Assembly (NCBI GenBank): GCA_964342815.1
Contig: CAYFHS010000040.1
Coordinates: forward strand, 11,707 to 38,254
DNA from: an uncultured archaeon
GTDB taxonomy: Archaea > Thermoplasmatota > Penumbrarchaeia > JASLWR01
DNA: 26,548 nucleotides
Reading direction: 5' to 3'
Below, one piece after another: positions 22,294 to 24,945 of this stretch. Positions within the stretch are counted from its first letter, which is position 1, and each line of letters begins with the position of its first letter. The notes below the pieces were generated by a model that was not told the DNA's origin, made no database searches, and saw only the letters and a program-made list of their open reading frames with translations. Made by a program: the position numbers and the translations under genes.

Positions 22294-24945
22294 ATGAATA
22301 TATCAAGGAAGATATTATTGGTTTTTATTATCTTGCTGTTGGTGCCTTTGGCCACGATAAGTATATTATCGGTGTCAAATACAAATGATTTCAGCTCAGA
22401 TATGACGGAGACGAGCTCCGAGGCCCTCATCGAACGGGAGGAAGTCAGTATAGCTCATATTACATCGGAGAAGGCTAAATTTGTCGGCGAGGTATTCGAA
22501 TACAGCGAGGGACTCGTTAACATAATGGCTGATTACGCTACTGAGCTCTGGGCGAATCCAGATGATTGGGGGACGCGTATGTCCTATTACCACGATGCCA
22601 CCGCAGGTGACAGCCCTCCTGATGTTTTTTTCGATAAAGACGAATATAAAACGGCAGTTTCTCTCACATATTCCTGTTACAAACTGGCTCCCGATGTATT
22701 TTCAGGTTCGCACCTGAATATTGATGCGTCAGTCCAAAGGTCCATCAATATCTCGGCCAATATGGATTATATCTTCCAATCGACGAAGGGAGCAAATCCT
22801 GATTTTGCGTGGGTTTACATGGGAATGGAGACAGGCGTACACCGTAGCTTCCCATGGCATGGACCATATTCAGCTGACTATGATCCTCGAGCGCGAGGCT
22901 GGTACAAGGAAGCAAAAAAAGCAAACGGGCTTATCTCATGGAGCGATCCGTACATGGACGCATCAGGTAGGGGTTTGATGATATCATGTTCGAAAGCGGT
23001 ATACACGGAAAAGGGAGAACTCATCGGTGTCGTGGCCGCTGACCTCACCATTGAAACAATAAATCAAAACATATTGTCTGTTAAGGTGGGCCAGACGGGT
23101 TATGCATTTCTTGTTGACGCTGTCGGTAATGTTGTAGCTCACCAGGGGCTTGACGAGACGGGAACCAGTATACATATCACCCAATTGGAGACTACTGACA
23201 AAGGTTTTCAGGATCTTGTTAATGATATGACAAATGACGGCTCGGACGTTGTAGAGGTGAATTATCCCCAGGGTAACAAATATGTCTCATACTCCCCGGT
23301 AAGCAGTATAGGATACAGCGTGGCGATAGTGGTTCCCAGCCATGAGATCACCGAGCCCATAGATGAAGCGAAAGAAGAGATCAGCTCGGAATCGGCATCC
23401 GCAATAACGAAGTTAATACTCATATCCATATTCTTTATAATAATTGTTGTGGTGGTTGGTATCTTCATAGCGATCAGAATGGTCCGCCCGATAAAACAAC
23501 TAACAAACGTAGCTGGAATGATCACCCAGGGTAATTACAACGCAAGTATAAGTGTGGGTACAAATGATGAAATATCTGTCCTTGCAGATTCATTCAAGAA
23601 TATCTTGATAACGTTGAGACTTGGGAACACATCGTATTACAAGGGCGATCTGAAAAAGGCCCTCGAGAACTACAAGGAGGCACTTGTCCTGTTCGAGACC
23701 ACGGATAACCGGAAAGGTATTGGGATGTGCTATAATAATATGGGCAATATCTATCGTAACTGGGGCGAGTATGGGTTGGCGAAAGATTATTTTAAAAAGG
23801 CATTGGATATCGCCAAGAAGATCAATGACAAACATGGACTTGCCGTGAGGAATAATAATCTCGGCATACTTATGAAAGCACAGGGTAATCGAAGGGGAGC
23901 ATTGGAGTTTTATAAAAAGGCCCTAAAGATAGATAGGGAACTCGAAGACGACAGGTCAATTTCGATGCGGATGAACAATATCGGTCTGATTTATATGGAG
24001 TATGATGTTAATAAGGCAGTTGATCAGTTCGAAAAGGCATTATCGATCGATGAGCGATGCCGAAATAAACGTGGGAAGGGCAACAGTCTGAACAACCTTG
24101 GAAAGGCATACCTGCAAAAACAAATGTATGACGAGGCAATGGCATATCTCCAGGAAGCTTTGAGGATAGGGGGGGAATTGAACGATCCTAAGATGGTGAG
24201 CACGAGTTATCACTTAATAGCGGAATATTATCGCGGTATAGGTGATTTGGTTATGGAAAAGGAGACATTGGACGCTGCGGACGAGGTTAGTCTATTTGTC
24301 AAGCCTCCAAAGACGGTGATCTTCGTGGTTGATAAATCCGGCAGCATGACCTCACAGCGTATCAATGCAGTTCGTGCAGGCGCCGTTGAATTGGTCAACA
24401 ATAGGATTTATGATAAGGATAAAGTCGGGGTGATCGAGTTTGACGATGACCCTAATATCGTATGCAAACCCATAGTTGCTGCAAATAATAGGGAGAAGAT
24501 AATATCGAAGATTCTCAGTATCACGCCTAACCCGCCTTTTGGTATGACGGCCTTCTACGATGCTATCGGGTATGCAGTCCGATTATTATCCCAAACAGCC
24601 GTAGGAGATATGCATTGGATCGTTGCATTGACCGACGGAGAGGATAACAAGAGTGAGCATTTTGCTCCAAAGACGGAAAAATCCGGATTCAGGGTGAAAC
24701 GAAAAGGTATCCGGGATTTAATGGGTGAGATCGCTCTCGATGCGACCATTGTCGTATTGGGAGTCGGTGAGGAGATTGCAGGCGTAGAACAGGATTTGAA
24801 ATATCTTTGTAAGGATGGTGGGTATTATATCAAGATCGGATTAGGGCATGATGTCCATGAATCTATAACTAACGCATTCAAGGATGTCGAACGGCTATTT
24901 GCAGAACAGGAGGAGATAGAAGGATACACACCGGAGGAATATTGA
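22294..24945 (+). CDS. Transmembrane sensor: TM-dCache-TM-HAMP-TPR(x6)-vWA
   Basis: dCache YDPRARGWY/WSDPYMD; HAMP PIKQL...DEISVLADSFKNI; YNNMG/NNNLG/MNNIG/LNNLG TPRs; vWA VIFVVDKSGS...T...LTDGEDN. Confidence 0.92.
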   Translation: MNISRKILLVFIILLLVPLATISILSVSNTNDFSSDMTETSSEALIEREEVSIAHITSEKAKFVGEVFEYSEGLVNIMADYATELWANPDDWGTRMSYYHDATAGDSPPDVFFDKDEYKTAVSLTYSCYKLAPDVFSGSHLNIDASVQRSINISANMDYIFQSTKGANPDFAWVYMGMETGVHRSFPWHGPYSADYDPRARGWYKEAKKANGLISWSDPYMDASGRGLMISCSKAVYTEKGELIGVVAADLTIETINQNILSVKVGQTGYAFLVDAVGNVVAHQGLDETGTSIHITQLETTDKGFQDLVNDMTNDGSDVVEVNYPQGNKYVSYSPVSSIGYSVAIVVPSHEITEPIDEAKEEISSESASAITKLILISIFFIIIVVVVGIFIAIRMVRPIKQLTNVAGMITQGNYNASISVGTNDEISVLADSFKNILITLRLGNTSYYKGDLKKALENYKEALVLFETTDNRKGIGMCYNNMGNIYRNWGEYGLAKDYFKKALDIAKKINDKHGLAVRNNNLGILMKAQGNRRGALEFYKKALKIDRELEDDRSISMRMNNIGLIYMEYDVNKAVDQFEKALSIDERCRNKRGKGNSLNNLGKAYLQKQMYDEAMAYLQEALRIGGELNDPKMVSTSYHLIAEYYRGIGDLVMEKETLDAADEVSLFVKPPKTVIFVVDKSGSMTSQRINAVRAGAVELVNNRIYDKDKVGVIEFDDDPNIVCKPIVAANNREKIISKILSITPNPPFGMTAFYDAIGYAVRLLSQTAVGDMHWIVALTDGEDNKSEHFAPKTEKSGFRVKRKGIRDLMGEIALDATIVVLGVGEEIAGVEQDLKYLCKDGGYYIKIGLGHDVHESITNAFKDVERLFAEQEEIEGYTPEEY

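What the first reader, a model, noticed from the sequence alone, without database searches (positions are those of the whole stretch)
22294..24945. dCache-HAMP receptor whose output is TPR + vWA rather than kinase, MCP or cyclase
Seen: two TMs flank a dCache domain, followed by HAMP, six ~40-aa TPRs and a C-terminal vWA with a complete MIDAS set (D-K-S-G-S at 24331-24345, T at 24547, D at 24634). Established: dCache-HAMP normally feeds histidine kinases, MCPs, GGDEF/EAL or PP2C domains. vWA plus dCache co-occur in eukaryotic alpha2delta/CACHD1, but there both are extracellular. Inference: this is a ligand-gated protein-interaction switch in which HAMP motion controls a TPR scaffold or a metal-dependent vWA interface, for example toward a MoxR AAA+ ATPase or the paralog next door. 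I do not recall this architecture being characterised, but I could not search for it.
Basis: partly seen in the sequence, partly recalled or inferred. Interest (0 to 1): 0.8.

Follow-up and report, generated by a model that had tools for sequence, protein, structure and literature searches.

The report
Archaeal amino-acid receptor with TPR–vWA output
A marine archaeon encodes a membrane receptor that looks built to sense amino acids outside the cell but ends inside in protein-docking domains (TPR repeats plus a metal-dependent vWA domain) instead of an enzyme; it belongs to a small, undescribed archaeal family that always comes paired with a shorter receptor lacking any output.

Summary
ORF 22294-24945 (883 aa) reads TM, dCache_1, TM, HAMP, about six 40-aa TPRs, then a C-terminal vWA.

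The fusion is not an assembly artefact. At least 35 full-length relatives (each 50% identical or less) share the architecture, and D680, S682, T752 and D781 are invariant. Members carry Asgard labels (mostly Hodarchaeales). The window's own genome is Thermoplasmatota, not Asgard. All are annotated only as "tetratricopeptide repeat protein", and I found no paper on them.

New findings:
- **Gene pair.** In 12 loci the gene is followed at once by an output-less dCache-HAMP paralog; a 13th shows an uncharacterised partial gene there.
- **Ligand pocket.** The window pair has the full amino-acid motif. In other loci both partners swap the carboxylate-binding Arg for Glu, Asp or Asn, and six of seven such loci adjoin arginine/ornithine decarboxylases.
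- **Portable output.** Related sensors carry PP2C or PAS-DUF835 instead, so HAMP-TPR-vWA behaves as a swappable output.
- **Eukaryotic match.** The family's sensor profile scores best in the PDB against alpha2delta-1 and CACHD1; its vWA does not.

Most likely this is a ligand-gated docking switch that works with its short partner. A MoxR link is unsupported. The mechanism is inferred, not shown.

The parts
22294..24945 (+). Long receptor gene (883 aa): TM, dCache_1, TM, HAMP, TPR, vWA
   Evidence: ORF and translation; Pfam; AlphaFold2 model with pLDDT 86
22312..22380 (+). TM1 (about aa 7-29), N-terminus in the cytoplasm
   Evidence: Hydropathy and positive-inside charge count
22381..23406 (+). 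Extracytoplasmic dCache_1 sensor (aa 30-371). Its first ~100 residues after the long N-terminal helix (aa 95-195) resemble the VWA_N region of alpha2delta.
   Evidence: Pfam dCache_1, 84.4 bits, and VWA_N, 25.6 bits, below cut-off. PDB sequence hits: PctA 7e-19, CACHD1 3e-14, alpha2delta-1 2e-9. Residues 95-195 hit only alpha2delta-1.
22879..23043 (+). Amino-acid-binding motif: Y196, R201, W203, Y204, Y220, D250. These correspond to PctA Y121, R126, W128, Y129, Y144, D173.
   Evidence: Residue-by-residue alignment to PctA; positions computed; motif definition from PMC8915833
23407..23475 (+). TM2 (about aa 372-394)
   Evidence: Hydropathy; continuous helix 349-411 in the model
23476..23619 (+). 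HAMP (aa 395-442). P399 and E426 are invariant. The second HAMP helix runs into TPR1 through a conserved junction: G444 and N445 invariant, and R442, Y448, Y449 and G451 kept in at least 90% of 35 members.
   Evidence: Pfam HAMP, 33.6 bits; invariant columns
23620..24300 (+). TPR solenoid (aa 443-669), five to six repeats of about 40 aa, TPR_12/LGN-like
   Evidence: Pfam TPR_12, 3e-41; helices in the model; Foldseek hits to the LGN TPR
24310..24912 (+). Cytoplasmic vWA domain (aa 673-873) with a complete MIDAS: D680, S682 and S684 at 24331-24345, T752 at 24547, D781 at 24634
   Evidence: Pfam VWA and VWA_2; invariance; vWA-only model with pLDDT 91.5; Foldseek hits to ITIH, ArnB, BatB and integrin I domains
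24913..24942 (+). Conserved acidic C-terminal tail with the motif [VI]-E-G-[FY]. E876 is kept in at least 90% of members. The tail is disordered in the models.
   Evidence: Alignments; low pLDDT over the last 10 residues
24954..26548 (+). Short paralog (685 aa in full; it runs off the contig end). Reads dCache_1, TM, then HAMP with an acidic insert, then a tail ending in a Cys-rich zinc-ribbon-like motif. It has no TPR or vWA. It starts 8 nt after the long gene's stop and is preceded by GGAGGTG.
   Evidence: Full-length sequence P0013, taken from another assembly of the same organism. 41% identical to the long gene over residues 7-414.

Best explanation
The gene encodes the signalling subunit of a two-gene archaeal membrane receptor.

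Shown by sequence and homology:
- An extracytoplasmic dCache_1 domain carries the complete amino-acid-binding motif.
- It is followed by TM2, a canonical HAMP, and then a TPR solenoid whose first helix continues the HAMP output helix through a conserved junction.
- The protein ends in a cytoplasmic vWA domain with an intact metal-ion-dependent adhesion site.

Inferred:
- Binding of an L-amino acid to the membrane-distal pocket is relayed through HAMP.
- This changes the position or accessibility of the TPR groove and the MIDAS face, which recruit or release a cytoplasmic protein through an acidic residue or short peptide.
- The output is therefore ligand-controlled docking or sequestration rather than catalysis.
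- The co-transcribed short paralog has the same kind of sensor and a HAMP but no output. It most likely acts as a co-receptor, giving a heterodimer or mixed oligomer with a single output arm, or else as a modulating decoy.
- In sister loci, both partners replace the carboxylate-binding Arg with Glu, Asp or Asn, and most of these pairs sit next to arginine/ornithine decarboxylase genes. The same device is probably tuned there to amines such as agmatine or putrescine.
For: - Architecture and topology.
- Amino-acid motif: all six residues match PctA, as defined in PMC8915833. The closest solved sensors by sequence and fold are amino-acid-binding domains: PctA/B/C, Mlp24/37 and CtaA.
- Family: 35 members at 50% identity or less. 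TPR and VWA are found in 35 of 35 and dCache_1 in 34 of 35. MIDAS residues D680, S682, T752 and D781 are invariant. In the HAMP-TPR junction G444 and N445 are invariant and R442, Y448, Y449 and G451 are kept in at least 90%.
- TPR-vWA sits where other outputs sit. Homologous sensors carry SpoIIE/PP2C in genome G146 and in many other archaea. A paralog in the window's own genome carries PAS-PAS-DUF835. One variant (P0202) joins HAMP-TPR-vWA to an N-terminus with about seven TM segments.
- The pair: long-then-short gene order is confirmed in 12 loci; in the 13th, the contig of P0295, a partial uncharacterised gene lies there. The gap in the window is 8 nt. The pocket residue co-varies between partners in all 12 loci where both could be read, counting the PP2C pair in G146: R/R in five and E/E, E/D or E/N in seven. 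In six loci the sensor modules of long and short genes form sister clades, with SH-aLRT support of 99 and 98.
- Decarboxylases lie next to six of seven acidic-pocket loci and none of five Arg-pocket loci. They come from two unrelated families, PF02784 and PF01276; a third, PF01862, adjoins the odd-pocket P0014 locus.
- McpU and TlpQ dCache domains bind agmatine and putrescine in a strongly negative pocket that includes a Glu (PMC6234866).
Against: - No cytoplasmic partner is identified. Nothing except the short paralog is conserved across the loci.
- The association between decarboxylases and pocket type rests on only two or three phylogenetically independent contrasts and cannot reach significance.
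- In the window, and in the L013/L029 lineage, the long and short sensors group with each other rather than with their orthologs. Independent duplication or gene conversion is therefore an alternative to an ancient co-receptor.
- Heterodimer versus separate homodimers is untested.
- The acidic-pocket variants do not fit the published amine motif, in which the Arg position is simply not conserved (PMC10589655).
- Ligand binding, metal binding and expression are all untested here.
Confidence: 0.5

Rival explanations
1. The vWA is a substrate adaptor for a MoxR-type AAA+ ATPase, as in RavA-ViaA, CbbQ-CbbO or the Mg-chelatase BchI-BchD pair. The receptor would recruit or regulate that chaperone-like ATPase at the membrane.
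For: Weak matches to chelatase-type vWA: NCBIfam TIGR02442 at 1e-9, BchD structure 2x31 at 1.4e-8 with the family profile, and VWA_CoxE in 8 of 35 members. The genome does encode a MoxR.
Against: No MoxR/AAA_3 gene appears in any of the 13 neighbourhoods examined. The genome's best MoxR lies on a different contig. MoxR-vWA pairs are normally adjacent genes (established knowledge of these systems).
Confidence: 0.07
2. The TPR-vWA is a non-catalytic stand-in for the PP2C phosphatase found in homologous receptors. It would read or sequester a phosphoprotein or acidic regulatory protein in a Ser/Thr phospho-signalling network. The comparison is with the archaeal vWA protein ArnB, which works with the kinase ArnC, the phosphatase PP2A and the zinc-finger/FHA protein ArnA.
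For: The same sensor cassette carries SpoIIE/PP2C in many archaea, and in G146 that PP2C form is also paired with a short paralog. ArnB is the second-best solved match to the family's vWA profile (4.5e-16) and ranks third by fold. Zinc-ribbon elements recur next to the vWA gene. The short paralog's tail has one in the window, L013, L029 and G016. A beta-propeller/zinc-ribbon gene follows the pair in L011, L017 and L031, and a similar propeller gene lies on the P0014 contig. ArnA binds ArnB through a zinc finger (PMC12852372).
Against: ArnB's defining beta-sandwich and C-terminal helical bundle are absent here. ArnA's zinc finger contacts those missing domains rather than the vWA itself. No kinase or FHA gene is conserved in the neighbourhoods.
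Confidence: 0.2
3. The long and short genes encode independent receptors, each a homodimer, that sit together only because of tandem duplication. The short one would be a ligand sink or a decaying copy, and the pair has no joint mechanism.
For: In the window, long and short sensors are each other's nearest relatives (SH-aLRT support 91). The same holds in the L013/L029 lineage, which fits recent or repeated duplication.
Against: In six other loci, long and short form two old sister clades inherited together. The short form keeps intact TM, HAMP and pocket residues in every locus read. Order, strand and tight spacing are kept across two archaeal phyla. The pocket class switches in both partners together.
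Confidence: 0.15

Closest known systems
PctA-type dCache_1AA receptors (amino-acid chemoreceptors and their kinase, cyclase and PP2C counterparts; Gumerov et al. 2022, PMC8915833)
   Same: Same overall plan of TM, dCache_1, TM, HAMP. All six amino-acid-motif residues are present. PctA is the best single-sequence match among solved structures (7e-19).
   Different: The output is not an MCP, kinase, GGDEF/EAL, cyclase or PP2C domain but TPR plus vWA. That paper lists no such architecture.
Archaeal dCache-HAMP-SpoIIE (PP2C) phosphatases and their short dCache-HAMP partners (e.g. Thermoplasmata MAG G146, Methanoregula boonei, Bathyarchaeia)
   Same: The sensor cassette is homologous: 38% identity over residues 3-442, including the VWA_N-like stretch. 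The PP2C form is also encoded next to a short output-less paralog.
   Different: The PP2C catalytic domain is replaced by TPR-vWA.
Eukaryotic alpha2delta subunits and CACHD1
   Same: Both combine dCache_1 carrying the amino-acid motif with a MIDAS vWA in one polypeptide. The family's sensor profile has alpha2delta-1 (6.9e-36) and CACHD1 (1e-29) as its top PDB matches, ahead of every bacterial sensor. Its N-terminal ~100 residues match only alpha2delta.
   Different: In eukaryotes the vWA is inserted inside the dCache and both domains are extracellular, with no HAMP or TPR. Here the vWA is C-terminal and cytoplasmic. It is not specifically alpha2delta-like: 1e-4, against 5e-17 for ITIH4.
ArnB/ArnE of Sulfolobus (cytoplasmic archaeal vWA signalling proteins; PMC6509490, PMC12852372)
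   Same: A cytoplasmic archaeal vWA with a MIDAS, used in signalling rather than adhesion. It is the second-best PDB match to the vWA profile.
   Different: ArnB is soluble and has a beta-sandwich and a phosphorylated helical bundle. It is not fused to a receptor.
BatB of the Bacteroides aerotolerance operon (TM, vWA, TPR)
   Same: A membrane-anchored protein combining vWA and TPR. Its vWA structure 3ibs matches by sequence (4e-9) and by fold.
   Different: The domain order is reversed. There is no sensor or HAMP. BatB belongs to a MoxR/DUF58 operon, which is absent here.

Membership tests
dCache_1AA (amino-acid-sensing dCache_1) | dCache_1 domain above the Pfam threshold | tested here: met
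   84.4 bits against a cut-off of 45; double-PDC fold in the model
dCache_1AA (amino-acid-sensing dCache_1) | Motif Y121, R126, W128, Y129, Y144, D173 (PctA numbering) | tested here: met
   Y196, R201, W203, Y204, Y220 and D250 align one-to-one with PctA. The short paralog has Y, R, W, F, Y, D.
dCache_1AA (amino-acid-sensing dCache_1) | Binds amino acids | not testable with these tools
   Needs thermal-shift or calorimetry assays on the purified domain
HAMP-containing transmembrane receptors | HAMP directly after the second TM, with the conserved Pro in helix 1 and Glu at the start of helix 2 | tested here: met
   Pfam 33.6 bits against 25, residues 391-437; P399 and E426 invariant in 35 sequences
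MIDAS-bearing vWA domains | DxSxS, T and D metal-site residues on a vWA fold | tested here: met
   D680, S682, S684, T752 and D781 present; four of them invariant and S684 in 34 of 35. Model pLDDT 91.5; Foldseek hits to ITIH, integrin I domains and CMG2.
MoxR-vWA systems | MoxR AAA+ gene adjacent to the vWA gene | tested here: not met
   None in 13 neighbourhoods; the genome's own MoxR is on other contigs
alpha2delta / CACHD1 | vWA inserted within the distal module of dCache_1, all extracellular | tested here: not met
   The vWA follows TM2, HAMP and TPR and is cytoplasmic
alpha2delta / CACHD1 | VWA_N (PF08399) region | tested here: inconclusive
   The window's proteins score 25.6 and 29.7 bits against a cut-off of 34.7. 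Relatives in G146 and G094 exceed it, at 40.6 and 40.1 bits. No hit in 14 control genomes.
ArnB-type vWA | vWA split by a beta-sandwich, plus a C-terminal helical bundle | tested here: not met
   Only a plain vWA of about 200 aa follows the TPRs
BatB-type vWA-TPR | N-terminal TM, vWA, TPR order within a MoxR/DUF58 operon | tested here: not met
   The order here is TPR then vWA, and no such operon is present

The most novel reading that the evidence does not exclude
The archaeal dCache-HAMP cassette with a VWA_N-like stretch, to which this receptor belongs, is the prokaryotic lineage closest to the amino-acid-sensing dCache of eukaryotic alpha2delta and CACHD1. The published analysis could not trace that domain's source to any bacterial group. 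The TPR-vWA receptors would also show that archaea, Asgard included, had already joined this sensor to a MIDAS vWA in one protein. The eukaryotic sensor would then come from an archaeal ancestor or donor rather than from bacterial transfer at the last eukaryotic common ancestor.
Probability: 0.15. Interest if true: 0.85.

Novelty: new variant of a known kind. Interest (0 to 1): 0.62.

Why it matters
Membrane receptors of the dCache-HAMP type are among the commonest sensors in prokaryotes. In the two surveys read here they are listed only with catalytic outputs or the chemotaxis module. A conserved family that ends in TPR plus a MIDAS vWA would add a different output logic: ligand-controlled protein docking.

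The family also offers three things that can be tested directly:
- An obligatory long/short receptor pair, which may be a heterodimer with a single output arm.
- A natural Arg-to-acidic switch in the ligand pocket that tracks decarboxylase genes. This gives a concrete prediction of amino-acid versus amine sensing.
- A possible archaeal relative of the gabapentin-binding sensor of human calcium-channel alpha2delta subunits, whose origin is unresolved.

Tried and rejected
- **vWA self-association.** The complex-prediction job (two copies of the vWA domain with its tail, plus Mg) gave no verdict (score 0.02). I ran it to test whether the conserved [VI]-E-G-[FY] tail could serve as a ligand for a neighbouring MIDAS. 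My memory that integrin alpha-I domains have an 'IEGT' intrinsic ligand prompted the idea. It remains untested, and three earlier attempts failed because the machine was busy.
- **Asgard origin of the window.** I assumed this at first from the labels of relatives, then rejected it. The genome has no actin, profilin or EAP30 hit (the profilin model matched no genome at all), while the Hodarchaeum genome scores 437 bits for actin. A near-identical Topo VI-A is labelled Thermoplasmatota.
- **Upstream zinc-ribbon protein as a partner.** The window's 458-aa double-zinc-ribbon protein (19720-21096, minus strand) is not homologous to the Band_7/zinc-ribbon proteins upstream of the pair in L013 and L029. 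Only the CxxC motifs match.
- **Beta-propeller/zinc-ribbon gene.** It follows the pair in L011, L017 and L031 (a similar propeller gene is on the P0014 contig) but was not found in the window's genome with a single query.
- **Relation of the vWA to the alpha2delta vWA.** Not specific.
- **Word-indexed search with the vWA region.** It found only the closest family members plus one chelatase-like protein.
- **Statistics on the decarboxylase association.** Only two or three independent contrasts exist, so it is not significant.
- **Tree including eukaryotes.** Not possible, because no eukaryotic sequences could be fetched as references.
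Full report
**1. The observation**

The window holds an 883-aa ORF at 22294-24945 on the plus strand. Pfam finds these domains:
- dCache_1 at residues 145-346, 84.4 bits
- HAMP at 391-437
- five TPR_12 stretches between 440 and 650 (E 3e-41)
- VWA and VWA_2 at 675-791

It finds no kinase, MCP, cyclase, GGDEF/EAL or PP2C domain. NCBIfam gives only partial, below-threshold matches.

Hydropathy shows two membrane segments at about 7-29 and 372-394. 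The charge distribution is positive-inside, which places the dCache outside and everything after TM2 inside. A HAMP directly after TM2 is the canonical cytoplasmic arrangement.

An AlphaFold2 model built on 35 family sequences has a mean pLDDT of 86. It shows:
- a long N-terminal helix leading into a double-PDC sensor
- a continuous TM2/HAMP helix
- eleven long helices with a 40-residue period (five to six TPR-like repeats)
- a vWA alpha/beta fold at 673-873

The vWA modelled alone reaches pLDDT 91.5 and pTM 0.87.

**2. A real, conserved family**

A word-indexed search of 5.8 billion proteins found about ten full-length relatives. An exhaustive HMMER search of 1.84 billion cluster representatives found about 35 that match from end to end. 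In the 35-sequence alignment:
- TPR and VWA are detected in 35 of 35, dCache_1 in 34 and HAMP in 24
- D680, S682, T752 and D781 are invariant, and S684 is present in 34 of 35
- the HAMP hallmarks P399 and E426 are invariant
- in the HAMP-to-TPR junction G444 and N445 are invariant and R442, Y448, Y449 and G451 are kept in at least 90%; D452 is invariant in the 11-sequence alignment

At this junction the second HAMP helix becomes the first TPR helix. A C-terminal tail motif, [VI]-E-G-[FY], follows the last vWA helix, and its Glu (E876) is at least 90% conserved.

The sequences come from many independent assemblies, so the fusion is not a mis-assembly or a mis-called split gene. Every source name is a generic or partial automatic label: nearly all read "tetratricopeptide repeat protein" and one reads "Mg-chelatase subunit ChlD". 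The ESM Atlas holds the family as an automatically named cluster of 52 archaeal proteins. Full-text searches for the domain combination with Asgard or Hodarchaeales returned nothing.

**3. Which organisms**

Named members are labelled Candidatus Hodarchaeum mangrovi, Hodarchaeota, Hodarchaeales (twice), "Asgard group", Lokiarchaeota, Thorarchaeota (in the Atlas) and, once, Deltaproteobacteria. That last label belongs to a MAG and I did not verify it.

I first assumed the window was Asgard too. It is not:
- Its genome (88.9% complete) has no actin, profilin or ESCRT-II EAP30 match, although the profilin model matched no genome at all. The Hodarchaeum genome gives actin at 437 bits.
- A Topo VI-A at least 90% identical to the window's is labelled Candidatus Thermoplasmatota.
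- A closed genome of the same class is labelled Thermoplasmata.

Among 401 genomes sampled from the window's phylum, full-length family members were found in only three, and none in the same genus or family. The family therefore spans at least two archaeal phyla and is rare and patchy.

**4. An obligatory gene pair**

Thirteen neighbourhoods were examined. In twelve of them the long gene is followed on the same strand, within 0-70 nt or overlapping, by a shorter paralog. These twelve are the window with its second assembly L015, L011/L012, L013, L014, L017/L018, L026, L027, L029, L031, L040, G016 and the P0014 contig. On the thirteenth, the P0295 contig, a partial and uncharacterised gene lies in that position.

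The paralog reads dCache, TM, then a HAMP with a long acidic insert in its connector, then a short variable tail. In the window the gap is 8 nt, with GGAGGTG before the ATG. The window's contig ends inside the short gene. Its full 685-aa sequence, P0013, comes from another assembly of the same organism.

In a tree of the sensor modules, long and short genes form sister clades in six loci (SH-aLRT 99 and 98). In the window, and in L013/L029, long and short of one lineage group together. This fits an old duplication followed by some later homogenisation or re-duplication.

**5. The ligand pocket**

The window's long protein carries all six residues of the amino-acid motif of PctA-type sensors: Y196, R201, W203, Y204, Y220 and D250 (motif from PMC8915833). 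The short one has Y, R, W, F, Y, D.

Across loci, the residue that binds the ligand's carboxylate (PctA R126) co-varies between the partners:
- R with R in the window, L017, L027, L031 and the related G146 pair
- E with E, D or N in L011, L013, L014, L026, L029, L040 and G016

Six of the seven acidic-pocket loci lie next to an arginine/ornithine/lysine decarboxylase. These enzymes come from two unrelated families, PF02784 and PF01276. A third, the pyruvoyl enzyme PF01862, lies next to the odd-pocket P0014 locus. None of the five Arg-pocket loci has one.

Only two or three independent contrasts exist, so this is suggestive and not significant. The precedent is that the dCache sensors McpU and TlpQ bind agmatine and putrescine in a strongly negative pocket that includes a Glu (PMC6234866). 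The acidic variants do not match the published quaternary-amine motif (PMC10589655).

**6. TPR-vWA occupies an output position**

- The closest non-family sensors carry a SpoIIE/PP2C phosphatase after HAMP. In the closed Thermoplasmata genome G146, that PP2C protein lies about 0.8 kb from a short paralog on the same strand.
- This PP2C form and its short partner are widespread in Thermoplasmata, Bathyarchaeia and methanogens.
- The window's own genome has a third paralog that reads dCache, in-frame TGA, HAMP-PAS-PAS-DUF835.
- One family member, P0202, joins HAMP-TPR-vWA to an N-terminus with about seven TM segments instead of dCache.

HAMP-TPR-vWA therefore behaves as a portable output that has replaced an enzyme in an older two-gene cassette.

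**7. What the vWA resembles**

By profile, the best solved matches are ITIH4 (5e-17), the archaeal signalling protein ArnB (4.5e-16), PTMP1, ITIH1, CLCA1, CMG2, BatB and BchD. By fold, the list is the same generic set of MIDAS vWA domains. No MoxR gene is linked (and all neighbourhoods).

Zinc-ribbon elements recur:
- in the short paralog's tail in the window, L013, L029 and G016
- in a beta-propeller/zinc-ribbon gene after the pair in L011, L017 and L031, with a similar propeller gene on the P0014 contig

ArnB's partner ArnA uses a zinc finger, but it contacts domains that are absent here (PMC12852372).

**8. The alpha2delta connection**

A profile of the family's sensor region (33 sequences) has eukaryotic alpha2delta-1 as its top PDB hit: 6.9e-36 and 127 bits in total. 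The pre-vWA and post-vWA halves of alpha2delta's first dCache contribute 40.7 and 59.4 bits. CACHD1 follows at 1e-29. Both rank ahead of the best bacterial sensor, Mlp24, at 97.6 bits.

The first ~100 residues of the sensor hit nothing in the PDB except alpha2delta-1. Three bacterial control sensors score alpha2delta at 1e-3 or worse, against 2e-9 for the window protein.

The Pfam model VWA_N, built on alpha2delta, is exceeded above its curated cut-off by relatives in two genomes of the window's class. It matches none of 14 control genomes.

Gumerov et al. state that they could not determine which bacterial group gave rise to the eukaryotic proteins. The vWA half, in contrast, is not specifically alpha2delta-like (1e-4). 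I could not build a tree that includes eukaryotes. This remains a lead with modest probability.

**9. Verdict**

The interpretation as a receptor with a non-enzymatic docking output is the best-supported reading, and the short paralog is the only conserved candidate partner. The MoxR idea is not supported.

This is a new variant of a known kind: a dCache-HAMP receptor with an undescribed output and an obligatory co-receptor. It is of moderate to high interest, and it carries a more speculative evolutionary link to eukaryotic alpha2delta/CACHD1.

Noticed in passing
G000 contig C37, locus L003 1447-4293: A third paralog in the same genome reads dCache_1, then an in-frame TGA, then HAMP-PAS-PAS-DUF835. 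It could be a pseudogene, a sequencing error or a recoded stop. DUF835 is another non-classical archaeal output.
   Followed up: partly
L011 14337-15641 (-), L017 6340-7428 (+), L031 12149-13165 (+): A cytoplasmic beta-propeller protein with a C-terminal C4 zinc ribbon follows the receptor pair in these three loci. The three copies are 24-26% identical to each other. A similar propeller gene lies on the P0014 contig. It was not found in the window's genome with one query. A propeller beside a MIDAS vWA recalls the integrin alpha/beta pairing.
   Followed up: partly
window 24954-26548 and L015 10001-12058 (P0013 residues 479-685): The window's short paralog has an unusually long tail of about 200 aa, with no Pfam family. 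It includes an 'IKDSVIQRSxIG' motif shared with L013 and a terminal Cys-rich CxxC...CxxC motif. That motif resembles the C-terminus of the L011 propeller protein (E 6e-5).
   Followed up: partly
P0202 (metagenomic family member, no window coordinates): A variant in which an N-terminus with about seven TM segments replaces dCache in front of HAMP-TPR-vWA.
   Followed up: partly
L011, L014, L026, L040 (PF02784); L013, L029 (PF01276); contig of P0014 (PF01862): Arginine/ornithine/lysine decarboxylases from three unrelated enzyme families lie next to receptor pairs whose pocket lacks the carboxylate-binding Arg.
   Followed up: yes
L015 13325-13972 (-), about 1.3 kb beyond the end of the short paralog in another assembly of the same organism: An AsnC/Lrp-type regulator lies three genes downstream of the pair, after two unknown proteins of about 184 aa. 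This family is typically amino-acid-responsive.
   Followed up: no
window 8504-9619 (-) and whole genome: The organism is a marine Thermoplasmatota archaeon with a 4.35-Mb assembly, not Asgard, although many family relatives carry Asgard labels.
   Followed up: yes
contig of P0295 (no DNA held): One family member is labelled Deltaproteobacteria in NCBI. This may be mis-binning or a genuine bacterial copy.
   Followed up: no
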